A DNA stretch of 64,000 nucleotides, taken from the NCBI GenBank assembly GCA_039935655.1, contig JBDTJX010000077.1, positions 55,718 through 119,717 of the forward strand. Reading direction: 5' to 3'. The notes beneath the pieces were generated by a model. That model was given only the letters and a program-made list of their open reading frames with translations, searched no databases and had not been told where the DNA came from. This document shows positions 50,810 to 63,380 of this stretch, one piece after another. This stretch comes from Candidatus Dormibacter sp. Lineage in GTDB: Bacteria > Chloroflexota > Dormibacteria > Aeolococcales > Aeolococcaceae. Every line of letters starts with the position of its first letter. Position 1 is the stretch's first letter. Both the position numbers and the translations under genes were made by a program.

Positions 50810-51719
50810 CGAGGCGCTCCTGTTCCTCGGCGAGCCTGCCCAGGTCCCAGCGCGTCCAGTCGCGCACCTGCACGATCAGCCCGAGCAGGCTGACGAGCAA
50901 CGCGAACAGGATGACCACGCTCACCAGCACCACGTTGCCCGCGACGGACTGGTAAAACGCGCGGAACGTGTCCACGCGGATGACGATGACGAACATCACC
51001 ACCATCAGGACCGACATCGCAATCGTCACCGCGCGCTGCTGGGTGAGCGTGACTGCCGCCTCCTCCTGCACCGCGAGTTGCGCGCTGCCGACGGGAAGCA
51101 GCAGCTCGTCGATCGCCTCGATGAGTGCTTCGAGGCTGCGGCTGCGCGTCCACAGCAGCACCGCGCACGCGTACTCCACGACGGGGGAGCGCGCCCTCAA
51201 CCCCACCGCGACGATGTTGTCGAGGACCGAACCGCCGCGCGCCAGCGGCGCCAGGACGTACTCCAGTCCAGGTCCGGGGTCGCGCCCGATCTCCTGCAGC
51301 GCGGTGTCGAGCGATTGATTGGCCACGGCCATGCGATCGCGCACGTCGCGCAGCCTCCCCAGAAACGCGCGCTCCATGCGCAGGCGACGGTTTGCCGCGG
51401 TCCCCGCCAATGCGAAGCGGAACCCGAAGGCACCGAGCAACCCGCCGATCACCGCCAGGATCCAGATGCGTGACAGAAGCCCGAGCGCGATGCCGGCTGC
51501 GATCAGCGACAGGCGCACCCCGACCCAGCGGCGCCACGGCCAGCCGAGGTTGGCGGCGACGTCGCGCTCCCGCTCGAGCAGGCGCCAGCGCGGTCGCTGG
51601 CGGCCGAGGCGGCGCACGTCGAGGTCCAGGATCGCCGCCGTGCCGCCCGCGGCGCACGCGATCACCACGAGGAGGCCCGCCAGTTGCAGCGTCGTCCAGC
51701 CGACCGCAGAGAGGATCAC
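50799..51719 (-). CDS. Type II secretion system F family protein (TadB-like)
   Basis: Same architecture as the TadC-like gene. Start ATG overlaps the cpaF stop (ATGA). Confidence 0.68.
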   Translation of the reverse strand: MILSAVGWTTLQLAGLLVVIACAAGGTAAILDLDVRRLGRQRPRWRLLERERDVAANLGWPWRRWVGVRLSLIAAGIALGLLSRIWILAVIGGLLGAFGFRFALAGTAANRRLRMERAFLGRLRDVRDRMAVANQSLDTALQEIGRDPGPGLEYVLAPLARGGSVLDNIVAVGLRARSPVVEYACAVLLWTRSRSLEALIEAIDELLLPVGSAQLAVQEEAAVTLTQQRAVTIAMSVLMVVMFVIVIRVDTFRAFYQSVAGNVVLVSVVILFALLVSLLGLIVQVRDWTRWDLGRLAEEQERLGAQ

Positions 51720-53128
51720 GGCGACGGGATCTCGTCAGCCGGCAGGTGGCCTCGCAGGCGTGGCCCGAGTCGGTTGAGATTTCCGACCTGCTCGGTCATC
51801 CGCCGCCAGCCGCCGCTGTCCGTCTGTCGGTACACCCACTTGTGATTGCCGCCTCGTTCCACCGCCAGGACCCCCGTTAGCCGACGCCGGCCGTCCTGGT
51901 TGGCGAGGTGAATCACTAGCTGGATAGCGTGTTCCACGACCCGCTTGGCCATCTTCTCGTTGCCGGTGAAACGCCGGTTCTCCATCACGTATTGCACAGC
52001 CTGGTCGAGGGCCAGCTCGGCGTCTTCAGCATGGATGGTCGTCATCGATCCGTCGTGACCGGTCATCAGCGCCTTGCACACGGCGGCCATCTCTTCACCG
52101 CGCGACTCCCCCAGGATCAATCGGTCGGGTTGAAAGCGCAGCGCGTGCCGCACCAGGTCGAACATGGTGAGCTGTCCGGAGTCGGCCTCCGCCCTGATCG
52201 ACGGGATCGTCGACACCGCCGAGGTCAGCGCGTGCCACGGCTGTCCGTCGCCACGGTCCTGGTCGAGGTGCAGCTCAGCCCCGTCCTCCACGACGACGAG
52301 GTGCTCGCCAGCGGGCACCATGCCGCACAGCACGCGCATCAACGTCGTCTTCCCGGTGCTGGTGCCACCGGCGATCATCACGTTGACGCGTGAATCCACG
52401 CAGGCCTCGATGAATCGGGCAATGCCCTCGGGCATCACCGCGCTGTGAACGTAGTCTGCGAGGTCGCGGACCTTCGAGCGGGCCGGGATACGGATGGCCG
52501 CCACCAGCGCTGCCTGCCCCGAGACGGCCGGGCGTTTGGCGACGCAGACGCGGATCACGCTGCCAACGTTGGCCTCCGCGATCGGGGCTGCATCAGTGAT
52601 GCTGTGGTCCCCGGTGACGCCACGCAGTCGCACCACGCGGCGAAAGAACTCGAGGCAGTCCTCGTCACCGGTGAACGGGCTGCCGCCGATCAGCGTGAGC
52701 TTGCGGCCCACGACGCTCACCAGCCAGCGGTCATAACCCAGACAGGTGATGTTTTCGAGATCGGCCCCGTAGACGAGCAGCGACAACGGAAAGAGGTGTG
52801 AGGCCAGGATCGCAGCGTTCCGGCGGGCGACGGCGCGATAGCCGGGGTTGCTGCCCAGCTCGCTGACCACCGCCAGCGGCAGCCCGCTCGTCGACGGCGA
52901 CGCGATGGCGCGCTCCACAACCCGAGCCACGTCGTCGTGCAGGCGCTCCTCGTGGTGCACCGACGCCGGCTCAACGCCGCGGTCGCCGATGACCCTGTCG
53001 GCGATTGCCTGCGCCACCTCACGCTCTTCGGCCGCGATCTGCGGCCACCTGGCGACGCGAACCTCCGTCGACCGCGTCGGAGTGAGTGGATCCAAGCCCA
53101 CACCGCCGACGTCGACCCGCACTGCCAT
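51716..53128 (-). CDS. CpaF/TadA family secretion ATPase (VirB11-like)
   Basis: Walker A VMIAGGTSTGKTT, Asp box, Walker B RLILGESRGEE, His box GHDGSMTTIHA. ATG (complement of 53126-53128) shares one base with the upstream stop (TGATG). The N-terminal 35 codons of the annotated ORF are rejected. Confidence 0.88.
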   Translation of the reverse strand: MAVRVDVGGVGLDPLTPTRSTEVRVARWPQIAAEEREVAQAIADRVIGDRGVEPASVHHEERLHDDVARVVERAIASPSTSGLPLAVVSELGSNPGYRAVARRNAAILASHLFPLSLLVYGADLENITCLGYDRWLVSVVGRKLTLIGGSPFTGDEDCLEFFRRVVRLRGVTGDHSITDAAPIAEANVGSVIRVCVAKRPAVSGQAALVAAIRIPARSKVRDLADYVHSAVMPEGIARFIEACVDSRVNVMIAGGTSTGKTTLMRVLCGMVPAGEHLVVVEDGAELHLDQDRGDGQPWHALTSAVSTIPSIRAEADSGQLTMFDLVRHALRFQPDRLILGESRGEEMAAVCKALMTGHDGSMTTIHAEDAELALDQAVQYVMENRRFTGNEKMAKRVVEHAIQLVIHLANQDGRRRLTGVLAVERGGNHKWVYRQTDSGGWRRMTEQVGNLNRLGPRLRGHLPADEIPSP

Positions 53129-53850
53129 CACGCAAGCACAGGCACGAGACTGAGGTCGTCGTTGACGCCGACGAGCGTGGTCGGCGTGCCAGTCTCGCCC
53201 ATCCTGGTGGCGCGAGCCTCGTCCCAATGCCACACCTCGCGAATTGCCAGCCCCGGAACGTTGCGCTCGAGCGTCTCGACAACGAGGCGGCGGTAGGCAC
53301 GGCTGCGCTGGTTGCAGATGATCAGCTCGCCATGCGGTGGTCGCGCCGCCTGGAGCACGCTGATGCTCCTCGACAGCAACGCAGGGTCATCCCGGATGAC
53401 CACGAAGGCGCGCGAGAAGACCGAGCAGATCGCCTCGGCCGCCGACCGTGGTGAGCGCAGGCCGGGATGAGAGAGCGGATGCCCGAGGTCAGCGACCACC
53501 ACGTCGTCGCGCATGCCTGCCAGGGCTGAGGCCAGCTTGGCCAGGCATTCGACGATCTCGTACCCGTAGCTGCGCGACAGCCCGGGCACGATGCGGAGCT
53601 GCTCGCGCTTAGGGTGGCCGATGGCTTGCGCATCGAGCTGCAACGCCGTCGCTGGTCGATCGCCGAAACAGTTGGCGATAGAACGGTCGTCTGTGCGCAG
53701 CAGCAGGAGGTCGGCGAGAGTTCCGCCTTCCATGTCGCAATCAACGAGCAGCACGCGATGCTGCTCCGCGAGCGTCCACGCGAGGCACGCCGCCCAATGT
53801 GTGGACGTCTGACCCGCGCGCGTCGTGTAAACGGCGATCAGGGTGCTCAT
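53128..53850 (-). CDS. Ssd/TadZ-like degenerate ParA-family protein (septum-site-determining-like)
   Basis: MinD/ParA fold with the Walker A position degenerate (AVYTTRAGQTSTHW instead of KGGxGKT) and a DCDMEGG Walker-B-like segment. ATG at 53850 overlaps the cpaB-like stop (ATGA). Confidence 0.6.
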   Translation of the reverse strand: MSTLIAVYTTRAGQTSTHWAACLAWTLAEQHRVLLVDCDMEGGTLADLLLLRTDDRSIANCFGDRPATALQLDAQAIGHPKREQLRIVPGLSRSYGYEIVECLAKLASALAGMRDDVVVADLGHPLSHPGLRSPRSAAEAICSVFSRAFVVIRDDPALLSRSISVLQAARPPHGELIICNQRSRAYRRLVVETLERNVPGLAIREVWHWDEARATRMGETGTPTTLVGVNDDLSLVPVLA

Positions 53851-55340: not shown

Positions 55341-58250
55341 CTACGGGATCAGGTGGATAGCCCCGATGTCCTCCGCCACGGTCATGGTCAGCTCCAGGGG
55401 CTCCGACCCATACGCCGGCCACTGGCTGCAGGCGCCGATCGGGAACCGGTAGGCCGTGGGCCCTGTGGGCATTGTCTTGAAGGAGATGGTGCGGTGCTCG
55501 CCGGGTGGCGAGGGACGGTCGTCGATGATCACCAGGCTGCTGGTGAAGCGCGCGGCGGCGTCGAGCTCGATCCATGAGTAGTCGTCCCAGCGATGGCCGG
55601 AGGGCAGCGTCAGCCGCAGCGATGCCGGCCCAGTGCGGGTTATCCCCACTGAGATCGGCGACGCCCCCGTCGGAGGTGGCGGCGGCTTCACCGATAGGAA
55701 GTTCGGCGCGTCGCCCCAGTCGCAGCCGAAACCGACGAAGGGCAGGTCGGTGGTGATCAGAGGGGTCGACAGCGGCAGGTGCAGAGACCTCGGGTCCGGC
55801 ACGTTGGCGGTGTCGAGCACGTAGATCGTCTGGCCGTGCACGTCGGCGAACGGGCGGTAATGGCTGAGGATGTACTGGCTGATGTCGTAGTGCCGCACCA
55901 TGGTGGGGATGTAGTCCCACCCGGGGATGCCCAGCTGGGTCTGGTTGTAGAGCACAAACAGCGGGTGATCGGCCTGCAACTGTGCGATCAGGTCCCGCTG
56001 GATGACCTGGCGCATGGCGATCGACACCTGGTAGTACGCCGTGCCGGGGCGGAAGTCCATGAGGTAGTAGAGGAATGCCGGCTCGTCGGTGAAGTCGAAC
56101 ACGTGGCCACCCGCGGGCAGGTAGGCGTGCAGGAAGGTGCTGACGTCGTTGAGCAGATTGATGTCCAGCGCAGTCGGCGTCGCGTACCCCAGCGCTGCGA
56201 TGCGCGGCTCGCTGCTCACCGTGGTGCGATAGCCCGCCGGCGCCGCCTTCACCGCCGGACTGATCGCAAACGGGAACAACCACACCAACACTGCGAAGAG
56301 TGCTGCAACCCCGAGCCCGCTACTCAGCCCCCGCACGCGCGCGAACAGCCGTACCAGGAGGGGACCGCCGACATCGGCGATCTCGCCGATAAGGATGATC
56401 AGCAGCGGCACGCACGTCGCGAAAGTCTCGTTGACATGAAGGTCGGCGCGGTCGAGGAATTTCGGGTAGTAGAGGAACTCCAGGATCGCCGCCGCGATCA
56501 GCATCCAGTCGAGAGTGGTCAGCCGGACCCGCAGCCAGAGCTTGGTCACCACCAGGAAGAAGCCGGCAAGCATCGCGACGACGGGCACGACGACCTCCAT
56601 CAGGTACTGCCCGGTCAGCGGCTGGTGCGGCAGTCCGCCGGTGAGGATGTGATCGGGGGCGAAGGCCGTGTAGTACTTGACGAAGTCGTCCAGGGCATGC
56701 TGGCTGAGCAGGATGACCAGAAGCACGGCTGCGACGGTGACTCCGCCCACCGCTGTCCACAGGGTTGTCGTGAACGCCGGGAGCCGGAGGTTGGCGCGCC
56801 GGCCGCCGGTGGCGTAGAGGTCGCGCGCGAGCACGGCGAATCCAACCGCGGCGATGCAGTACGCGGTCTCCGGGGTGATCACCGCCTCGATGGCCAGCGC
56901 CGCCCCCAGCGCGATGGCGAGCCACCGCCCGCGGCTCTCGAGAACGAACCACAACAGCACGAGAACCAGTGGCCAGGTGACGAAGCGCCAGAAGATGACT
57001 GCGTTGCCGAGGTCAGCGTGCAGCAGCAGGACCCCGAGAACGGGAACCAGCAGCAGCCACCCCTTGCCGACGACCCGGTATGCGAGGAAGTAGAAGCTGA
57101 GCAGACAGAGCGGCACCACCCAGAGCGTGTACCCGGATGCCGCTCCCCAATAGCTGTCCTGGATCGACGTGCTGGTCAGCAGCGGCTGGAACGCATCCTC
57201 GAGGATGCCGTGCGTGCTGATCCAGCCGCTCCATGGAAAGAGGCCTGACTGGACCAGCCGCAGCGTGGTCTGGCTCTGGCCGACCTCGAAAGCGTCGAAG
57301 TCGCCGAGTTGGCCGAACACAAACGCGAGTGCGACGAAGAGGAAGACCGGTACAGCCACCAGGAAGACGAGGCGCTGTTCGACACGCACGACTGCGGCCG
57401 CCTCACGGCCGGCACGCCGCAACGCCACCGCCGCAACGAGGACTGCCGCGACCAGAAGCACGACCCCGAGCGAGGTCGGCAGCCAGGCGTAGTGGTGCAC
57501 GGTGTGGTCGCTCAGCACCGTGACCTGGGTCGCCTGCGACGCGGCGATCAGCGCCGATAGGGTCAGGCATGCGCCGAACCCGTTGAAGCGACCCTGGTGC
57601 CTGCGCAGGGCATCCCAGCCATCCTGTTTTCGGTTGCTGCTCGCCAGCGCCGCCGACATGAGCACGACGACGAGCGTGTAGACGGCGGCGACGACGAGGA
57701 CAGTGCGCCACACGTTGGACGCAGGGGTGTTGCGCGCGATGGTCGCACCGAAGCCGAGGACGCCACCGACCAGCGCGATTCTCGCCCATGATGCGAGCAC
57801 AGCCATTGCGTCAACCGGCGTCGTTCCCGTCTCACCTCGGGCCGTCGCGGGGGTATCCACCGAGCTCCTCCGAGAGCGGTCAGCGAACGCGGGGAGGGGC
57901 ACATGTAGCCGCGCAAACACCCACAGCCCGAGAAGGCAGATGACCACGGTCGTCGCCGGGAAGACCACCACCGCCAGCTCGTACTGGGTGATGTACACAT
58001 AGGGGTTGAACGCCTGGAAGATGGGATAGCCGATGACGTCGGTGGCCACGTGGAGCGTCCTGTCGATGTGATGATCGAGGGTCCTGGCGCCGAACGCGGC
58101 GATGGCCACGGCAACCCCGATGAGCACGGCGAGCGGCAGCCCGCGCCCAAGCGCCGTCGCCCAGACGCGCAACCGCGGCGCTGGCAATCGCGGCCCCGGT
58201 TGAGCCTGACGTGAGTTCACACGAGTACCCGCGTGGATCGATTTCGGCAT
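55341..58250 (-). CDS. Large polytopic membrane protein, putative GT-C-type (polyprenyl-phosphate-sugar-dependent) glycosyltransferase
   Basis: 969 aa with about 20 TM helices across the first 650 aa, then a 300-aa C-terminal extracytoplasmic domain. This architecture is reminiscent of actinobacterial arabinosyl/mannosyl GT-C enzymes. Divergent from the GT2/heptose operon. Confidence 0.6.
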   Translation of the reverse strand: MPKSIHAGTRVNSRQAQPGPRLPAPRLRVWATALGRGLPLAVLIGVAVAIAAFGARTLDHHIDRTLHVATDVIGYPIFQAFNPYVYITQYELAVVVFPATTVVICLLGLWVFARLHVPLPAFADRSRRSSVDTPATARGETGTTPVDAMAVLASWARIALVGGVLGFGATIARNTPASNVWRTVLVVAAVYTLVVVLMSAALASSNRKQDGWDALRRHQGRFNGFGACLTLSALIAASQATQVTVLSDHTVHHYAWLPTSLGVVLLVAAVLVAAVALRRAGREAAAVVRVEQRLVFLVAVPVFLFVALAFVFGQLGDFDAFEVGQSQTTLRLVQSGLFPWSGWISTHGILEDAFQPLLTSTSIQDSYWGAASGYTLWVVPLCLLSFYFLAYRVVGKGWLLLVPVLGVLLLHADLGNAVIFWRFVTWPLVLVLLWFVLESRGRWLAIALGAALAIEAVITPETAYCIAAVGFAVLARDLYATGGRRANLRLPAFTTTLWTAVGGVTVAAVLLVILLSQHALDDFVKYYTAFAPDHILTGGLPHQPLTGQYLMEVVVPVVAMLAGFFLVVTKLWLRVRLTTLDWMLIAAAILEFLYYPKFLDRADLHVNETFATCVPLLIILIGEIADVGGPLLVRLFARVRGLSSGLGVAALFAVLVWLFPFAISPAVKAAPAGYRTTVSSEPRIAALGYATPTALDINLLNDVSTFLHAYLPAGGHVFDFTDEPAFLYYLMDFRPGTAYYQVSIAMRQVIQRDLIAQLQADHPLFVLYNQTQLGIPGWDYIPTMVRHYDISQYILSHYRPFADVHGQTIYVLDTANVPDPRSLHLPLSTPLITTDLPFVGFGCDWGDAPNFLSVKPPPPPTGASPISVGITRTGPASLRLTLPSGHRWDDYSWIELDAAARFTSSLVIIDDRPSPPGEHRTISFKTMPTGPTAYRFPIGACSQWPAYGSEPLELTMTVAEDIGAIHLIP

Positions 58251-58497
58251 GAAAGGGGGCGCGCCGCCCCAAGCAGGGCCACGGCGGTCCGCGCGCCGCC
58301 CTTTCGAGCGACATCCGTCCGTTGGCCGCTACAGTATTACCATTCCTCCGGCCACGGGTGGACCCCCGCAACGCCCCCCATCGCCCGGATCACCTGAGGG
58401 AGACTCGTCTTTGCCCGGATCGCCTCCAATCACCTCGGCTCTCGACGACATCGATGTGATCCACGTGTCGGGCGCTGACACCGGAGAGCGGACCGAG

Positions 58498-59718
58498 ATG
58501 CCGTCGATCAGCCTCCTCGTGCCGGTCGACGACATTGCCGACCCGGTGCTCTCGATCGTCATTCCCGCGATGAACGAAGAGATCACTGTCAGTGACTTCG
58601 TTGCGTGGTGCCGCGCCGGCCTCGAGGATGCCGGTGTCACCGGTGAGGTCCTCATCGTCGACAGCTCCACCGACCGCACGCCCGAGCTCGCGGTCGTCGC
58701 GGGCGCGCGCGTGCTCCGAGTCCCCGGACGCGGACTGGGCCGCGCCTACATCGACGCGCTTCCCTACATCCGCGGCCGCTGGGTGATCATGGGAGACGCC
58801 GACTGCACCTACGACTTCCGCCGGCTCTCACCCTTCACCGCACGCTTCGACGAGGGCTTCGAGTTCGTCATGGGATCGCGTTGGAAAGGCGCCATCGAGA
58901 AGGGCTCGATGCCTGCCCTGCACCAGTATCTTGGCACCCCGATCACAACGCTGATCCTCAACACGTTGTTCGGCAGCCGCTTCTCCGATATCCACTGCGG
59001 CATGCGTGGCATCACCCGCGACGCACTGGAGCGCATGCACCTGCAATCCCAGTCCTGGGAGTACGCGTCCGAGATGGTCCTCAAGTCGGTGCACATGCAC
59101 CTGCGGACAACCGAGGTTCCGGTGTCGTTCCTCAAGGATCGGCAGGGCCGTGTCAGCCATCACAAGCGGCTCGGCTGGTTCTCGCCGTTCCAGGCAGCCT
59201 GGATCAACCTGCGCGCCATGTTCATCTACGGGGCCGACTTCTTCCTGCTCAAACCAGGTTTGCTGCTCACGGCGCTGGGCCTGCTCATCGTCGTGCCCCT
59301 CACGTTGGGCCCGATCAGCCTCGGCCCGTTGGTGCTGTCGCTGTACTGGATGCTGTTCGGCCTGACCATGACGGTCCTCGGTCTGCAGAGCTTCTACATG
59401 GGATGCATCGTGCAGGTGCTGCACGATTACACGGGAAAGGCGACGCGTCGCTGGCTGTCCGTGTTCCGCTACACACGGACGATGCTCATCGCCGGGGCAA
59501 TGTTCATCGTCGGAATCGCGCTGGCGGTGGGACTCATCATCGACTACGTCGGCTCCGGGTTGCGCCTCCCCCTGAGCCACACCCATCAGATCTACTTCGC
59601 GATCACCGGCCTTCTCCTGGTGATCACCAGCTTCATGACCTTCGCCGCCACTCTCCTCATCCACGCCGCCGCGCTGCGTGGTCCCCGCGCCGGCGTCGCC
59701 GAAGACGAGCTGGCATGA
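58498..59718 (+). CDS. GT2 family polyprenyl-phosphate sugar synthase (DPM1/GtrB-like) with a C-terminal 4-TM anchor
   Basis: LSIVIPAMNEE, a DADCTYD DxD motif, and a GtrB-like C-terminal membrane domain. ATG 58498 follows GGAGAG. The upstream 83 codons of the ORF are Pro/Arg-rich junk. Confidence 0.78.
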   Translation: MPSISLLVPVDDIADPVLSIVIPAMNEEITVSDFVAWCRAGLEDAGVTGEVLIVDSSTDRTPELAVVAGARVLRVPGRGLGRAYIDALPYIRGRWVIMGDADCTYDFRRLSPFTARFDEGFEFVMGSRWKGAIEKGSMPALHQYLGTPITTLILNTLFGSRFSDIHCGMRGITRDALERMHLQSQSWEYASEMVLKSVHMHLRTTEVPVSFLKDRQGRVSHHKRLGWFSPFQAAWINLRAMFIYGADFFLLKPGLLLTALGLLIVVPLTLGPISLGPLVLSLYWMLFGLTMTVLGLQSFYMGCIVQVLHDYTGKATRRWLSVFRYTRTMLIAGAMFIVGIALAVGLIIDYVGSGLRLPLSHTHQIYFAITGLLLVITSFMTFAATLLIHAAALRGPRAGVAEDELA

Positions 59719-60326
59719 GCAGCTTCGCCGACCAGTTCATCGGCGAGTCCATCGCCATCCTGCAGTCGATCGACCGGGCCGAGGTTGAGAAGATGGCGAT
59801 TGGGCTGGGAGCCGCCCGCGCGCGCGGTGGCCGGCTGTTCATCCTCGGCGTCGGCGGTTCGGCCGGCCACGCCAGCCATGCGGTCAACGACTTCCGGAAG
59901 ATCTGCGAGTTCGAGGCCTACACGCCGACCGACAACGTCTCCGAGCTCACCGCCCGCATCAACGACGATGGCTGGGACAGCAGCTTCGTTGAGTGGCTCA
60001 AGGGCTCGCGGCTGAATGAACGCGATGCCGTTCTCGTCTTCTCCGTCGGCGGCGGGAACCGCCAGCGCAACGTGTCCGTCAACCTCGTCACCGCTCTCGA
60101 GCTGGCGCGCGAGCGACGCGCGGCGATCTACGGGGTCGTCGGCCGCGACGGTGGCTTCACGCGCGAGGTGGCTGACGCGTGCGTGGTGATCCCCCCGGCC
60201 TATCCCGACCATGTCACCCCGCACACCGAGGGCCTCTGCGCCGTCGTCTGGCACCTGCTCGTCTCTCACCCGGCGCTCATGGTGGCTGCTACCAAGTGGG
60301 AGTCGGTGACCCACGCTCGCGCATGA
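59715..60326 (+). CDS. SIS-domain sedoheptulose-7-phosphate isomerase (GmhA-like)
   Basis: LFILGVGGSAGHASH and VFSVGGGN SIS motifs. Start overlaps the GT2 stop (ATGA). Confidence 0.78.
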   Translation: MSSFADQFIGESIAILQSIDRAEVEKMAIGLGAARARGGRLFILGVGGSAGHASHAVNDFRKICEFEAYTPTDNVSELTARINDDGWDSSFVEWLKGSRLNERDAVLVFSVGGGNRQRNVSVNLVTALELARERRAAIYGVVGRDGGFTREVADACVVIPPAYPDHVTPHTEGLCAVVWHLLVSHPALMVAATKWESVTHARA

Positions 60327-61309
60327 CGGAGGCGTCTCTGCGGCGGGTGCTGATCGCCGGCGGTGCCGGCTTCATCGGCAGCTACTTCGTTGACCGCCTG
60401 CTCGGCGACCAGGAGACGAGCCGGGTCACGGTGTACGACAACTTCACGTCCGGGCGCGAGTGGCACCTCGCGCCACACGCGGCCGACGACCGGTTGACGG
60501 TGGTGCGCGCCGACATCGCCGACCGCGACGCCCTGGCCGCGGCGATGCGCGGTCACGACACGGTCATCCACCTCGCCTCCAACCCCGACATCGCCAAGGC
60601 GATGACCGAACCGACTGTGGACTTCTACGAGGGCACCGTTCTCACCCACGACGTCGTCGAGGCGATGCGCGTGGCCGGCGTCGGGATGATCCTCTATGCG
60701 TCGGGAAGCGGCGTGTACGGCGACATCGGGGACACCGAGGGTCATGAGGACATGGGGCCGCTCATCCCGGCGTCGACGTACGGTGCGAGCAAGCTCGCCG
60801 GCGAGGCACTGATCGCCTCGTACTGCTTCATGTTCGGGCTTCGCGGCCGCGTCTTCAGGTTTGGCAACGTGGTCGGTCCGCGCCAGACACACGGCGTGGG
60901 CTTCGACTTCGTGCGCCGCCTGCTTGCCGATCCACGGCGCCTGCGCATCCTCGGGGACGGCACGCAAAGCAAGTCGTACGTCGACGTCGAGGACGTGGTC
61001 AGTGCGGTGCTGCTCGCCGCCGTCGACGAGTCGCATCCCTTCCGCGCCTACAACGTGGCCACCGGCGATTACATCACCGTGACCGAGATCGCCGACCTGG
61101 CCGTGGATGTCGTCGGGGGCGCCGGGGGTGACACCGAGTACGAGTACACCGGTGGCAGCCGCGGCTGGAAGGGCGATGTACCGATCGTGCGGCTGGACAC
61201 CTCACGTATCCGCGCGCTGGGATGGAGCAACGCGCGCACCTCCCGGCAGGCTCTGGACGAGTCGATGCGGGCGATGCTGCCGCTGGCGCGGTCGGGGGCA
61301 CTCGGGTGA
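60323..61309 (+). CDS. NAD-dependent sugar-nucleotide epimerase/dehydratase
   Basis: VLIAGGAGFIGS Rossmann motif and YGASK catalytic motif. Start overlaps the gmhA-like stop (ATGA). Confidence 0.85.
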   Translation: MTEASLRRVLIAGGAGFIGSYFVDRLLGDQETSRVTVYDNFTSGREWHLAPHAADDRLTVVRADIADRDALAAAMRGHDTVIHLASNPDIAKAMTEPTVDFYEGTVLTHDVVEAMRVAGVGMILYASGSGVYGDIGDTEGHEDMGPLIPASTYGASKLAGEALIASYCFMFGLRGRVFRFGNVVGPRQTHGVGFDFVRRLLADPRRLRILGDGTQSKSYVDVEDVVSAVLLAAVDESHPFRAYNVATGDYITVTEIADLAVDVVGGAGGDTEYEYTGGSRGWKGDVPIVRLDTSRIRALGWSNARTSRQALDESMRAMLPLARSGALG

Positions 61310-62589
61310 ACGCCGGGGTGGCGGCGGTCTTCCTCGACCGCGACGGCGTCCTCGTGGAGGGCACCGAGGTGGACGGCGTGCCGACGCCGGTGTCCCGTGG
61401 TGGGCTCGAGCTCAGGCCCGGCGTGGAGGTGGCGTGTCGTCAGTTGCGCGCCGCCGGCCTGCCGCTGGTCTGTGTGACCAACCAGCCCGACATCGCCCGT
61501 GGCACGGTGACCATGGAGTCGGTGCGAGCGGCCAACGCGGAATTGCAGGCGCGGCTCAGCCTCGATGCCGTCATGGTCTGTCCCCACGACGACGCCGATG
61601 AGTGCGACTGCCGCAAACCGCGTCCCGGTCTCCTGCTGTCGGCTGCGAACCTTCTCGGTATCGACCCCAAGCGCAGCGTCATGGTCGGTGACCGCTGGCG
61701 CGATGTCGAGGCAGGCCGCCGTGCCGGCTGCGCGACCATCTTCATCGACAACGGATACCATGAGCGACGCCCGGATCACCCCGACGTGACAGCCCGCGGG
61801 CTCGATGAGGTGGTCCCGCAAATTCTGAGGATGACCATGCAAAAAGCCGCCGTCGATCGCGACGCAGCCGATGCCGTCAACGCGGCCGACCTCACCGTCG
61901 AGATCTTTGCGGACGGCGCCGACCTCGCATCCATCGTCGGGCTGGCCACCAACCCGCTGATCAAAGGCTTCACCACCAACCCCACGCTGATGCGCGCAGC
62001 GGGGGTCACCGACTACGACCGCTTCGCCCGGGAGGTGGTCGCGGCGGTGCCGACGATGCCGGTGTCGTTCGAGGTGTTCGCCGATGACTTCGATGGCATG
62101 GAACGCCAGGCACGGCGCATTGCCGAGTGGGGCGACAACGTCTACGCGAAGATCCCGGTCACCGATACCAAGGGCACGCCCACCCGTGGCGTGATCAGCG
62201 CGCTGAGTGAGACGGGCGTACAGCTCAACGTCACGGCGCTGATGACCGTCGAGCAGGTGAGCTGGGTCACCGAGGCGCTCGCGGGCGGGCCGCCCAGCTT
62301 CATCTCGGTGTTTGCGGGCCGGGTCGCCGACACCGGCCGCGACCCCATCCCGATCATGGTCGACAGCCTCGCGGTCATGGCGGCGCATCCCAACCTCAAG
62401 CTGATCTGGGCAAGCCCACGCGAGACCCTCAACATCGTGCAGGCCGACCAGATCGGCTGCCACGTCATCACCGTCACCCACGACCTTCTCAAGAAGCTGT
62501 CGATCCTCGGGACGGATCTCGACGAGTACTCGCTGGACACAGTGCGCATGTTCCATCGCGACGCCACCACCGCAGGGCTGGCGCTGTGA
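61306..62589 (+). CDS. Bifunctional fusion: D,D-heptose-1,7-bisphosphate phosphatase (GmhB, HAD) plus Fsa/TalC-type transaldolase
   Basis: GTG start overlaps the upstream stop (GTGA). N-terminal AVFLDRDGVL (HAD motif I) and CPHDDADECDCRKPRPGLL (GmhB zinc/motif III). C-terminal half has GFTTNPTLM, the Schiff-base lysine context NVYAKIPVT, and IWASPR, matching Fsa/transaldolase. There is no in-frame stop between the two halves. Confidence 0.75.
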   Translation: MNAGVAAVFLDRDGVLVEGTEVDGVPTPVSRGGLELRPGVEVACRQLRAAGLPLVCVTNQPDIARGTVTMESVRAANAELQARLSLDAVMVCPHDDADECDCRKPRPGLLLSAANLLGIDPKRSVMVGDRWRDVEAGRRAGCATIFIDNGYHERRPDHPDVTARGLDEVVPQILRMTMQKAAVDRDAADAVNAADLTVEIFADGADLASIVGLATNPLIKGFTTNPTLMRAAGVTDYDRFAREVVAAVPTMPVSFEVFADDFDGMERQARRIAEWGDNVYAKIPVTDTKGTPTRGVISALSETGVQLNVTALMTVEQVSWVTEALAGGPPSFISVFAGRVADTGRDPIPIMVDSLAVMAAHPNLKLIWASPRETLNIVQADQIGCHVITVTHDLLKKLSILGTDLDEYSLDTVRMFHRDATTAGLAL

Positions 62590-63380
62590 CAACCGCCGAC
62601 AACTCCGCACGCGATGACTGGGACAGTCACTGGCGCCACTACGCCGAGACCGCGGAGGACAACCCGGCCGAGATCATGCGATCGCAACTGGTCAGACGGT
62701 TCCTCAACACGCGCTCGCGCAAGCGCGTGGTGGACATCGGCAGCGGACAGGGCGACCTCGCCGCGATGCTGATGCGCGACCATGCCGACGCTCAGGTGCT
62801 CGGACTGGAGCTCAGCGCCGAGGGAGTCGCGATCGCCAAAGCCAAGGTCCCGTCGGCCACGTTCGTGCAGCGCGATCTTTTGGTCGACTCGCCCGTTCCC
62901 ACCGAGTTCGCCGGTTTCGGTGAAGCCGCCGTCTGCTCCGAGGTGCTCGAGCACGTCGACGACCCGGCGCGGGTGTTGCGCAACGCGCGGCCGTTCCTGT
63001 CTCCCGGATGCCGGGTGGTCATCACCGTGCCAGGTGGGCCCATGTCGGCCTTCGATCGTCACATCGGCCACCGCCGTCATCACACCCCGAGCTCGCTGCA
63101 CGCCGTCATCGACGCCGCGGGCCTCGACACCGTGGCGGTGTTCCGCTCCGGGTTCCCGTTCTTCAACCTGTACCGCATGACGGTCATCCTGCGCGGCAGC
63201 AAGCTCATCGACGACGTCTCAGCGCAGGAGCGGGGCGCTGGCGCGTCGTCCGGTGTGGCGGCGCTGGTCATGCGCATATTCCGCACCCTGTTCCGCTTCA
63301 ACCTCACGCGCAGCCCATGGGGATGGCAGATCGTGGGGATCGCCCGCGTCCCGACGGCGGGCACTGCCGGGCGCGTCTGA
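62586..63380 (+). CDS. Class I SAM-dependent methyltransferase
   Basis: VVDIGSGQGDL motif I and an acidic motif II (LGLELS). GTG start overlaps the upstream stop (GTGA). Confidence 0.78.
   Translation: MTTADNSARDDWDSHWRHYAETAEDNPAEIMRSQLVRRFLNTRSRKRVVDIGSGQGDLAAMLMRDHADAQVLGLELSAEGVAIAKAKVPSATFVQRDLLVDSPVPTEFAGFGEAAVCSEVLEHVDDPARVLRNARPFLSPGCRVVITVPGGPMSAFDRHIGHRRHHTPSSLHAVIDAAGLDTVAVFRSGFPFFNLYRMTVILRGSKLIDDVSAQERGAGASSGVAALVMRIFRTLFRFNLTRSPWGWQIVGIARVPTAGTAGRV

What the first reader, a model, noticed from the sequence alone, without database searches (positions are those of the whole stretch)
61306..62589. In-frame fusion of GmhB heptose bisphosphate phosphatase with an Fsa/TalC-type transaldolase
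One 427-aa ORF has no stop between a complete HAD-type GmhB domain (DxDG and a zinc-binding Cys cluster) and a complete Fsa/transaldolase domain with the Schiff-base lysine. Transaldolase produces sedoheptulose-7-phosphate, the substrate of the heptose pathway encoded by the surrounding genes. The fusion would therefore couple substrate supply to the pathway. The domain boundary has an in-frame MTMQK, which could also be an internal start.
Basis: seen in the sequence. Interest (0 to 1): 0.55.

Follow-up and report, generated by a model that had tools for sequence, protein, structure and literature searches.

The report
Phosphatase-transaldolase fusion in sugar operon
This is a real fusion of two neighbouring genes, a GmhB-like sugar phosphatase and a transaldolase, from a widespread, uncharacterised five-enzyme module that makes a nucleotide-activated seven- or eight-carbon sugar; the fusion is ordinary and the module is the more interesting part.

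Summary
Window 61306-62589 (+) is one 427-aa ORF. It has a complete HAD-IIIA, GmhB-like domain with a zinc loop, a short flexible linker, and a complete transaldolase domain (TIGR02134, above cut-off). The catalytic residues are Tal-type (Glu/Phe), not Fsa-type. The fusion is not an artefact: the identical protein occurs in two independent assemblies, and at least 120 fused homologues exist.

The fusion is the minority form. In 80 species genomes, 63 carry HAD and TAL as adjacent separate genes and only 9 are fused. The fused forms are scattered over the tree, so fusion happened repeatedly. A relic start of the former TAL gene (GAGGA-N5-ATG at M178) remains at the junction.

The gene belongs to a conserved module of TAL, SIS isomerase, sugar kinase, HAD phosphatase and nucleotidyltransferase, found in at least 574 species. 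An unfused copy is Coxiella burnetii CBU_0673-0678, needed for phase I LPS, function unknown. The enzyme set also matches the lincomycin octose pathway LmbR/N/P/K/O.

The partner enzymes score far below the heptose-pathway cut-offs. The fusion joins steps 1 and 4, so direct channelling is unlikely.

The parts
61306..62589 (+). HAD::TAL fusion gene, 427 aa (GTG start; TGA stop included)
61306..61851 (+). HAD-IIIA, GmhB-like phosphatase domain (residues 1-182). Motifs: D11/D13, T58-N59, K104, D129/D133. Zinc loop: C92, H94, C100, C102. The last helix is 167-182.
61827..61839 (+). SD-like GAGGA, 5-nt spacer, then in-frame ATG (M178). This is a relic, or a still-used start, of the formerly separate TAL gene. 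It lies in the lowest-GC stretch of the ORF, and R175 uses the rare AGG codon.
61846..61890 (+). Variable linker (residues ~181-195). pLDDT is below 50 at residues 181-188.
61891..62586 (+). Transaldolase domain (residues ~196-427, TIGR02134 type). Key residues: D203, E256, K282 (Schiff base), F336, R339, S370, R372.
59715..60326 (+). SIS-domain sugar-phosphate isomerase, a distant GmhA relative (39 bits vs cut-off 209)
60323..61309 (+). NAD-dependent SDR epimerase/dehydratase
58411..59718 (+). GT2 glycosyltransferase similar to AglJ and dolichyl-phosphate hexose transferases; probably a polyprenyl-phosphate sugar synthase
62586..63380 (+). SAM-dependent methyltransferase; its start overlaps the fusion's stop codon
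63385..64000 (+). N-terminal part of the GHMP sugar kinase (HddA-like, 158 bits vs cut-off 600), cut by the window end. A nucleotidyltransferase and a second methyltransferase follow on contig L001.
55341..58250 (-). Divergently transcribed 969-aa polytopic membrane protein with no Pfam hit. It may be a GT-C-like transferase that uses the lipid-linked sugar; this is inference only.

Best explanation
The ORF is a genuine bifunctional protein made by fusing two adjacent operon genes.

Proposed pathway. The two halves catalyse step 1 and step 4 of a five-enzyme line that makes a nucleotide-activated higher sugar.
1. The TAL domain makes the ketose phosphate that enters the line. Most likely this is sedoheptulose-7-P from fructose-6-P plus erythrose-4-P.
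2. The SIS protein isomerises it to the aldose phosphate.
3. The GHMP kinase phosphorylates C1.
4. The HAD domain removes the distal phosphate.
5. The nucleotidyltransferase makes the NDP-sugar.
An SDR epimerase and two methyltransferases then tailor the sugar. A GT2 enzyme probably loads it onto polyprenyl phosphate for a surface glycan.

Role of the fusion. It does not channel a substrate. It fixes 1:1 co-expression and may tether the phosphatase to the transaldolase oligomer. A free TAL may also be made from the retained internal start.

Shown: domain identities, catalytic residues, operon membership, conservation of the module, recurrent fusion.
Inferred: every substrate and product, the C7 identity, and the fate of the sugar.

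Confidence. I give about 0.8 to the general statement that this is a pathway-dedicated TAL plus phosphatase of an NDP-higher-sugar module. I give about 0.5 to the S7P/C7 version.
For: - Domains and catalytic residues are intact and invariant.
- The TAL half is in TIGR02134. From my memory of that model's description, it covers the only transaldolases of Staphylococcus and Coxiella, so ordinary Tal chemistry is expected. In Coxiella the transaldolase Q83DM4 is CBU_0675, and 13C labelling there was interpreted with TK/TA reactions.
- The best-scoring named families for the partners are GmhA, HddA, HddC and GmhB. NCBI names the unfused HAD homologues heptose-1,7-bisphosphate phosphatase.
- The operon has overlapping stop/start codons: GT2-SIS-EPI-HAD::TAL-MT-KIN-NTR-MT.
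- SIS is detected within about 1.2 kb upstream of HAD/TAL in most of 80 species loci, and the kinase and nucleotidyltransferase are nearby in most.
- HAD and TAL are adjacent separate genes in 63 of 80 loci and fused in 9. Counting the five fused loci fetched separately, fusions fall in at least 6 separate clades of a neighbour-joining tree without bootstrap support.
- The AlphaFold2 model has two confident domains, a disordered stretch at 181-188 and pTM 0.60.
Against: - S7P is already made by transketolase in any cell with a pentose phosphate pathway, and the canonical GDP-/ADP-heptose pathways as I know them carry no transaldolase. A dedicated supply enzyme retained so widely is therefore not obviously needed.
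- All partner enzymes are far below heptose equivalog cut-offs: GmhA 39 vs 209, HddA 158 vs 600, HddC 62 vs 300, GmhB 106 vs 178.
- In Coxiella the module coexists with, and is not replaced by, the canonical ADP-heptose enzyme CBU1655.
- No biochemical data exist for any member.
Confidence: 0.5

Rival explanations
1. Lincomycin-like chain extension. The TAL domain transfers a C3 unit from F6P or S7P to ribose-5-P and so builds octulose-8-P, as LmbR does. SIS (like LmbN), the GHMP kinase (like LmbP), the HAD domain (like LmbK) and the nucleotidyltransferase (like LmbO) then convert it to an NDP-octose. The module would be a widespread eight-carbon sugar pathway.
For: - The five enzyme classes match LmbR/N/P/K/O one for one. 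LmbR and LmbN are reported to build the C8 sugar from R5P plus F6P or S7P.
- In this reading the transaldolase is indispensable, which would explain why it is kept in nearly every copy of the module.
- The partners are far from heptose equivalogs.
- Many related loci add a UDPG/GDP-Man-dehydrogenase-family gene (28/85), a GFO/IDH/MocA oxidoreductase (39/85) and an SDR. These are the same kinds of enzymes as LmbL, LmbZ and LmbM, which tailor GDP-octose. The family assignment of LmbL rests on the 'nucleotide sugar dehydrogenase' best hit of CcbL; that of LmbZ rests on my memory.
- The published closest non-lincosamide homologues of CcbK, CcbZ, CcbO, CcbN and CcbP come from Acidobacteria and Sorangium. 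Acidobacteria carry the module commonly here, and one Haliangiales locus (Myxococcota) carries it.
Against: - No Lmb or Ccb sequence could be obtained, so orthology is untested.
- CcbR is 222 aa and its closest homologue is a Cellulomonas transaldolase. It may belong to another Tal subfamily.
- To my knowledge, no octose other than Kdo has been reported in Coxiella LPS, which carries the module.
- The window's own operon lacks the dehydrogenase and GFO partners.
- UGD plus GFO pairs are also common in ordinary polysaccharide loci.
Confidence: 0.3
2. Hitch-hiking housekeeping enzyme. The TAL is simply the cell's pentose-phosphate transaldolase. It happens to sit in, and move with, the sugar operon and has no pathway-specific role. 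The fusion would be a neutral loss of a stop codon.
For: - The transaldolase named in Coxiella, Q83DM4, is the module's CBU_0675. That it is Coxiella's only transaldolase is from my memory of the TIGR02134 description.
- Stand-alone TALs about 60% identical occur outside the module (L065, L068).
- 38 of the 63 split loci have HAD and TAL in the same frame separated by a stop, so one point mutation could fuse them.
Against: - The same SIS-HAD-TAL arrangement recurs across more than 10 phyla, and with two different kinase/nucleotidyltransferase types. That is hard to explain for a passenger.
- Fusions arose in at least 6 separate clades.
- L065 and L068 nest inside the module-associated clade rather than forming a separate housekeeping clade.
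Confidence: 0.1
3. Two products from one gene. This is an add-on and is compatible with any of the above. Besides the 427-aa fusion, translation also starts at ATG M178 behind the retained GAGGA, giving a free ~250-aa transaldolase.
For: - This is the only SD-like motif plus in-frame ATG in the ORF.
- It lies in the lowest-GC 30-nt stretch of the ORF.
- R175 uses the rare AGG codon (3 of 132 Arg codons in the operon).
- GAGGA-N5-ATG is kept in L006 at 74% identity.
- M178 is kept in the 12 closest aligned fused relatives while the following linker varies.
- Six fused loci from about four other clades also keep an SD-like motif plus ATG 13-25 codons before FADGAD.
- Separate TAL genes start a median of 11 codons before that motif.
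Against: - A recent fusion would leave the same relic without any function.
- M176 and M178 lie at the end of the last HAD helix and could be conserved for that reason.
- Several other fusions have no such Met.
- No promoter-like site is nearby, though none is needed for internal initiation.
Confidence: 0.3
4. The fusion is an assembly or sequencing artefact, such as a missed stop codon or a frameshift.
For: None found.
Against: - The identical ORF occurs in two independent runs and in an NCBI MAG protein.
- Orthologues at 82-92% identity from other metagenomes are also fused.
- Fused genes are present in 9 of 80 species genomes.
Confidence: 0.01

Closest known systems
[quoted passage not shown]
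   Same: It has the same four enzyme superfamilies in the same logical order: SIS isomerase, GHMP kinase, HAD-IIIA phosphatase with zinc loop, and nucleotidyltransferase. These are also the best-scoring named families.
   Different: The canonical pathway has no transaldolase. All four proteins here score far below the curated equivalog cut-offs. Here the phosphatase is fused to, or adjacent to, a TAL.
Lincomycin/celesticetin octose pathway LmbR-LmbN-LmbP-LmbK-LmbO (Streptomyces lincolnensis)
   Same: It is the only characterised pathway I know that combines a transaldolase with the SIS/kinase/HAD/nucleotidyltransferase set. The transaldolase is the committed first step. The closest outside homologues of several Ccb enzymes lie in Acidobacteria and Sorangium.
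   Different: It is a secondary-metabolite cluster. LmbK and LmbR are separate genes in different operons. The C8 product is shown there and not here. Sequence-level relatedness could not be tested.
Coxiella burnetii O-antigen region CBU_0673-CBU_0678
   Same: It has the same module in unfused form: HAD 'histidinol-phosphatase' CBU_0673, phosphoheptose isomerase CBU_0674, transaldolase CBU_0675 (Q83DM4), two epimerases, and the reversed-domain HldE CBU_0678. This has the same gene content as locus L034, though HAD and SIS are in the opposite order. It is a surface-glycan context.
   Different: HAD and TAL are not fused. The kinase and nucleotidyltransferase are a PfkB/cytidylyltransferase fusion instead of GHMP plus NTP_transferase. 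CBU_0678 is essential for phase I LPS and virenose, but its function is stated as unknown. The match rests on published annotations, not on sequences compared here.
TIGR02134 transaldolases (Staphylococcus/Coxiella type) and short archaeal/bacterial Tal (PDB 1vpx, 3s0c)
   Same: The TAL half passes the TIGR02134 cut-off. It aligns along its length with T. maritima and T. acidophilum Tal, with Asp, Glu, Lys and Phe conserved.
   Different: It is N-terminally fused to a phosphatase and embedded in a sugar-nucleotide operon.
Fructose-6-phosphate aldolase Fsa/TalC
   Same: Same TIM-barrel superfamily (PF00923).
   Different: It scores 82 bits against a cut-off of 246. It has Glu256 and Phe336 where Fsa has Gln and Tyr (the residue roles are from established Tal/Fsa literature, recalled from memory).

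Membership tests
GmhB (heptose 1,7-bisphosphate 7-phosphatase, HAD-IIIA) | HAD motifs I-IV (DxD, T/S, K, DD) | tested here: met
   D11, D13, T58/N59, K104, D129 and D133 are invariant in 58 fused homologues.
GmhB (heptose 1,7-bisphosphate 7-phosphatase, HAD-IIIA) | Zinc-binding Cys-x-His...Cys-x-Cys loop | tested here: met
   C92, H94 and C102 are invariant; C100 is conserved in at least 90%. The domain aligns with PDB GmhB 4pnh and 3l8e.
GmhB (heptose 1,7-bisphosphate 7-phosphatase, HAD-IIIA) | Score above the curated equivalog/subfamily cut-offs | tested here: not met
   NF006506: 106 vs 178. TIGR00213: 77.8 vs 149.6. NF050049: 57.8 vs 250. Only the general HAD-IIIA models pass.
GmhB (heptose 1,7-bisphosphate 7-phosphatase, HAD-IIIA) | Hydrolysis of the C7 phosphate of heptose 1,7-bisphosphate | not testable with these tools
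   Needs an enzyme assay.
Transaldolase, TIGR02134 type | Score above the curated cut-off over the full model | tested here: met
   331.8 vs 281.95 bits; residues 194-425 match model positions 2-233 of 236.
Transaldolase, TIGR02134 type | Schiff-base Lys plus catalytic Asp/Glu; Phe rather than Tyr at the Fsa-discriminating position | tested here: met
   K282, D203, E256 and F336 are invariant.
Fructose-6-phosphate aldolase (Fsa/TalC, TIGR00875) | Score above cut-off; Gln and Tyr catalytic pair | tested here: not met
   82 vs 245.95 bits. Glu256 and Phe336 are present instead.
Lincomycin-type NDP-octose module (LmbR/N/P/K/O) | Co-located transaldolase, SIS isomerase, GHMP kinase, HAD phosphatase and nucleotidyltransferase | tested here: met
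   All five are in one operon on L001 and recur in most of 80 species loci.
Lincomycin-type NDP-octose module (LmbR/N/P/K/O) | Orthology to the Lmb/Ccb proteins | not tested
   No Lmb or Ccb sequence was reachable. There is only indirect published BLAST evidence pointing to Acidobacteria and Sorangium.
Lincomycin-type NDP-octose module (LmbR/N/P/K/O) | Ribose-5-P as acceptor; C8 product | not testable with these tools
   Needs enzymology or mass spectrometry.
Coxiella CBU_0673-0678-type module | SIS, HAD, TAL, two SDRs and a reversed-domain HldE in one locus | tested here: inconclusive
   16 of 85 related loci have this arrangement. The window's own locus has SIS, HAD, TAL and one SDR, but GHMP kinase plus NTP_transferase instead of the reversed HldE. 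Coxiella gene identities come from papers only.

The most novel reading that the evidence does not exclude
The TAL-SIS-kinase-HAD-nucleotidyltransferase module, here with HAD and TAL fused, is a widespread primary pathway to a nucleotide-activated eight-carbon sugar built from ribose-5-P. It would operate in the surface glycans of hundreds of soil and aquatic bacteria and in the Coxiella O-antigen region. It would also be the evolutionary source of the lincosamide octose pathway.
Probability: 0.3. Interest if true: 0.7.

Novelty: new variant of a known kind. Interest (0 to 1): 0.4.

Why it matters
The fusion is a Rosetta-stone signal that the phosphatase and the transaldolase work in one process. 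That points to a conserved module that is annotated piecemeal as 'transaldolase', 'GmhB' and 'phosphoheptose isomerase', and that nobody appears to have characterised.

The module occurs in at least 574 species genomes across many phyla. An unfused copy sits in the Coxiella burnetii locus whose product is required for virulent phase I LPS and whose chemistry is still unknown.

Deciding between C7 supply and C8 construction needs only a few enzyme assays. The answer would either assign a function to that Coxiella locus or reveal octose sugars as a common component of bacterial glycans and the ancestry of the lincomycin sugar pathway.

Tried and rejected
1. Getting LmbR/LmbK sequences for a direct comparison. 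The key papers (PMC3486926, PMC3932030, PMC7547251) are not held, and no tool reaches Streptomyces lincolnensis. Orthology is therefore untested.

2. Literature on such a fusion or cluster. Searches for transaldolase+GmhB+fusion, for transaldolase with GmhA/HddA/HddC, for octose+transaldolase+nucleotidyltransferase, and for Coxiella+transaldolase+heptose+O-antigen gave nothing relevant.

3. Reaching the Coxiella transaldolase by homology search from the alphaproteobacterial TAL. The best 120 hits were all uncultured or other taxa. The identity of CBU_0675 was instead established from two papers.

4. Reaching Solibacter usitatus 'GmhB', the published best hit of CcbK, from a Bryobacteraceae HAD. 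It was not among the best 120.

5. Checking whether stand-alone TALs L065 and L068 sit among pentose-phosphate genes. They do not. Their neighbours are unrelated: a methyltransferase, an Omp85/POTRA outer-membrane protein, a peptidase.

6. Promoter scan for an internal promoter. None was found. The terminator-like hits at 61846-61864 are on the minus strand, caused by the A-rich junction, and were dismissed.

7. tRNA scan of the window. None found.

8. Fsa-type aldolase reading: rejected.

9. Artefact reading: rejected.

10. No fold search was run, because sequence-level domain identity was unambiguous.
Full report
OBSERVATION

Window 61306-62589 (+) is a single open frame of 427 codons. It begins at a GTG that overlaps the TGA of the upstream epimerase gene (GTGA). 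It ends at a TGA that overlaps the GTG of the downstream methyltransferase.

Pfam places HAD-type families on residues ~7-160 and TAL_FSA on 200-422 (E = 1.7e-38). NCBIfam gives HAD-IIIA models above cut-off (TIGR01656: 128 vs 84; TIGR01662: 88 vs 45). It gives the transaldolase model TIGR02134 above cut-off (331.8 vs 281.95), covering model positions 2-233 of 236.

In alignments of 20 and 58 fused homologues, these residues are invariant or nearly so:
- the HAD catalytic residues D11, D13, N59, K104, D129 and D133;
- the zinc loop C92, H94, C100 and C102;
- the transaldolase residues D203, E256, K282, F336, R339, S370 and R372.

'MTMQK' is residues 176-180. The description is therefore accurate.

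NOT AN ARTEFACT

The identical protein is called on contigs from two separate sequencing runs and is also held by NCBI as a MAG protein named 'transaldolase [Candidatus Dormibacter sp.]'. All 120 best database clusters, down to 54% identity, carry the same HAD+TAL architecture at 400-480 aa, apart from two truncated entries of about 300-355 aa. They come from Dormibacterota, Bryobacteraceae, Dongiaceae and others.

WHAT KIND OF TRANSALDOLASE AND PHOSPHATASE

The C-terminal half is not Fsa/TalC-like.
- It scores 82 bits against the Fsa model, whose cut-off is 246.
- It has Glu256 and Phe336 at the positions where Fsa enzymes have Gln and Tyr. The role of these positions is established Tal/Fsa knowledge, recalled from memory.
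- Its nearest solved structures are the short transaldolases of T. maritima and T. acidophilum.

The N-terminal half resembles GmhB in fold, motifs and zinc loop, with PDB GmhB hits at about 68 bits. It fails every GmhB-specific model: 106 vs 178, 77.8 vs 149.6 and 57.8 vs 250.

CONTEXT

On the longer contig L001 the operon is: GT2 (435 aa) - SIS (203) - SDR epimerase (328) - HAD::TAL (427) - methyltransferase (264) - GHMP kinase (326) - NTP transferase (238) - methyltransferase (209). All are on one strand with overlapping or nearly abutting genes. The window ends inside the kinase.

The best named families for the partners are GmhA, HddA and HddC, but all fall far below their cut-offs: 39 vs 209, 158 vs 600 and 62 vs 300. 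The GT2 resembles AglJ and dolichyl-phosphate hexose transferases. A divergent 969-aa protein with many hydrophobic segments and no Pfam hit lies upstream.

THE FUSION IS A MINORITY FORM OF A WIDESPREAD MODULE

They span Acidobacteriota, Dormibacterota, Chloroflexota, Eremiobacterota, Verrucomicrobiota (including the cultured Nibricoccus sp. IMCC34717), Alpha- and Gammaproteobacteria, Actinomycetota, Planctomycetota, Bacteroidota, Spirochaetota and Myxococcota.

In most of the 80 loci kept, a SIS gene is detected within about 1.2 kb upstream. The usual order is GHMP kinase - NTP transferase - SIS - HAD - TAL.

Reading the frames gave this split of the 80 loci:

| Arrangement | Loci |
|---|---|
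| HAD and TAL truly fused | 9 |
| Adjacent but separate, same frame with a stop between | 38 |
| Adjacent but separate, different frame | 25 |
| HAD elsewhere in the locus | 3 |
| No HAD in the locus | 5 |

- On a neighbour-joining tree of the TAL parts, built without bootstrap support, the fused forms fall in at least six separate clades (counting the five fused loci fetched separately). Fusion has therefore happened repeatedly.
- Against 1.84 billion representatives at 50% identity, 779 proteins match at E <= 1e-30. Only about 5-10 of the best 150 are full-length fusions. The rest are mostly 225-250-aa stand-alone TALs.

THE JUNCTION

- In separate-gene relatives, the TAL gene starts a median of 11 codons before the F of FADGAD, after a median 12-nt gap, often with ATGA overlaps.
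- In the window, the stretch 61816-61849 is the lowest-GC part of the ORF, 43% against 68%.
- That stretch contains the only SD-like motif followed by an in-frame ATG in the whole ORF: GAGGA at 61827-61831, a 5-nt spacer, then ATG of M178 at 61837.
- R175 inside the motif uses AGG, which accounts for 3 of 132 Arg codons in the operon.
- The same GAGGA-N5-ATG is kept in L006 at 74% identity. Six fused loci from about four other clades keep an SD-like motif plus ATG 13-25 codons before FADGAD.
- M178 is conserved in the 12 closest aligned fused relatives while the rest of the linker varies.

This is what a lost stop codon between two translationally coupled genes would leave behind. It may still allow a free TAL to be made.

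AlphaFold2 gives two confident domains (mean pLDDT 91.8), a disordered stretch at 181-188, and pTM 0.60. That indicates a flexible tether with no fixed interface.

RELATED, BETTER-STUDIED SYSTEMS

(a) Coxiella. Sixteen of 85 loci, mostly assemblies labelled Alphaproteobacteria, have SIS-HAD-TAL-SDR-SDR followed by a reversed-domain HldE (cytidylyltransferase-like plus PfkB), then a GFO/IDH/MocA oxidoreductase and, in most, a UDPG/GDP-Man-type dehydrogenase. The window's HAD is 48% identical to the separate HAD of such a locus. Published Coxiella burnetii annotations describe the same set of genes:
- CBU_0673, 'histidinol-phosphatase';
- CBU_0674, phosphoheptose isomerase;
- CBU_0675 = Q83DM4 = transaldolase;
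- CBU_0676 and CBU_0677, epimerases;
- CBU_0678, a reversed-domain HldE that is essential for phase I LPS and virenose, was acquired from Alphaproteobacteria, and has 'unknown' function.

Coxiella also has a canonical HldE (CBU1655) for core heptose. The module is therefore not redundant with the ordinary heptose pathway.

(b) Lincomycin and celesticetin. LmbR (transaldolase) with LmbN (SIS isomerase) builds the C8 sugar phosphate from ribose-5-P plus F6P or S7P. LmbP, LmbK and LmbO are the kinase, phosphatase and nucleotidyltransferase. LmbL, LmbM and LmbZ then tailor GDP-octose. The published closest non-lincosamide homologues are:

| Protein | Closest outside homologue | Identity |
|---|---|---|
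| CcbK | 'GmhB' of Solibacter usitatus | 49% |
| CcbZ | an uncultured acidobacterium | 40% |
| CcbO | Acidobacterium capsulatum | 38% |
| CcbN | Sorangium cellulosum | 39% |
| CcbP | Sorangium cellulosum | 37% |
| CcbR (222 aa) | Cellulomonas flavigena transaldolase | 47% |

Acidobacteria carry the present module commonly, and one Myxococcota (Haliangiales) locus carries it. Among the 85 loci, GFO-type partners occur in 39 and dehydrogenase-type partners in 28. The window's own operon has neither.

MECHANISM

Shown: a bifunctional protein with both active sites intact, encoded inside a conserved operon for a nucleotide sugar.

Inferred pathway:
1. TAL makes the ketose phosphate that enters the line.
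2. SIS isomerises it.
3. The kinase phosphorylates C1.
4. The HAD domain removes the distal phosphate.
5. The nucleotidyltransferase activates the sugar.
6. The SDR and the methyltransferases tailor it, and the GT2 loads it on a polyprenyl phosphate.

The two fused activities are the first and fourth steps, so the fusion cannot channel an intermediate. Stoichiometric co-expression, or assembly on the Tal oligomer, is the likely benefit.

The unresolved point is the carbon number.

- the TAL family includes enzymes that act as ordinary pentose-phosphate transaldolases;
- the best-scoring families for the partners are the heptose enzymes;
- to my knowledge, no octose other than Kdo has been reported in Coxiella LPS.

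For C8 (octulose-8-P from R5P):
- there is a one-to-one match to the Lmb set;
- a supply enzyme for a metabolite that transketolase already makes is hard to justify;
- the partners lie very far from heptose equivalogs;
- the module coexists with a canonical heptose pathway in Coxiella;
- the nearest outside relatives of Ccb enzymes come from phyla where the module occurs.

I put C7 at about 0.5, C8 at about 0.3, a passive housekeeping role at about 0.1, and other outcomes at about 0.1.

NOVELTY AND INTEREST

The protein is already in public databases, labelled only 'transaldolase'. I found no paper that describes the fusion or the TAL-containing module as such.

A fusion of adjacent operon genes is common and unsurprising. 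The value lies in flagging an uncharacterised, very widespread module. That module links a virulence-relevant Coxiella locus of unknown chemistry with the lincomycin octose pathway, and its function can be decided with simple assays.

Verdict: a new variant of a known kind, of moderate interest (0.4).

Noticed in passing
window 55341-58250 (-): A 969-aa ORF is transcribed divergently from the sugar operon. It has about 13 or more hydrophobic segments in residues 29-671 and a ~300-aa soluble C-terminus, with no Pfam hit. It is also conserved next to the operon on L001 and L002. It may be a GT-C-like transferase for the lipid-linked sugar.
   Followed up: partly
window 51716-53233 (-) and the small ORFs up to ~55277: A T2SSE (CpaF-like) secretion ATPase is followed by several small ORFs without Pfam hits. 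This may be a Tad-type pilus operon next to the glycan genes. Whether the glycan modifies the pilus is unknown.
   Followed up: no
L034 11498-13060; also 15 other loci (L009, L011, L017, L020, L027-L030, L037, L041, L046, L050, L076, L083; weakly L026): These loci carry an HldE-like protein with reversed domain order (cytidylyltransferase-like N-terminus, PfkB kinase C-terminus). It replaces the GHMP kinase and NTP transferase in one variant of the module. This is the same unusual architecture reported for Coxiella CBU_0678.
   Followed up: partly
L003 4499-7677, L034 13074-15346 and many other loci: A GFO/IDH/MocA oxidoreductase (39 of 85 loci) and a UDP-glucose/GDP-mannose-dehydrogenase-family gene (28 of 85) recur next to the module in two different gene orders. 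These are the same enzyme kinds as LmbZ and LmbL, which tailor GDP-octose.
   Followed up: partly
L065 7467-8714 and L068 7971-8705: Stand-alone TALs about 60% identical to the window's TAL domain lie outside any sugar module. On the tree they nest inside the module-associated clade. They may be escaped copies, or the rest of the module may be elsewhere in those genomes.
   Followed up: partly
L063 and L080 (Gammaproteobacteria / Legionellales MAGs): These loci have the order kinase - NTP transferase - SIS - TAL, with no HAD phosphatase detected in the locus. The phosphatase step may be encoded elsewhere or be missing.
   Followed up: no
window 62586-63380 and L001 13775-14404: Two SAM-dependent methyltransferases sit inside the operon. 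The final sugar is therefore probably methylated, once or twice.
   Followed up: no
window 1-64000: The whole 64-kb window contains no tRNA or tmRNA gene.
   Followed up: yes
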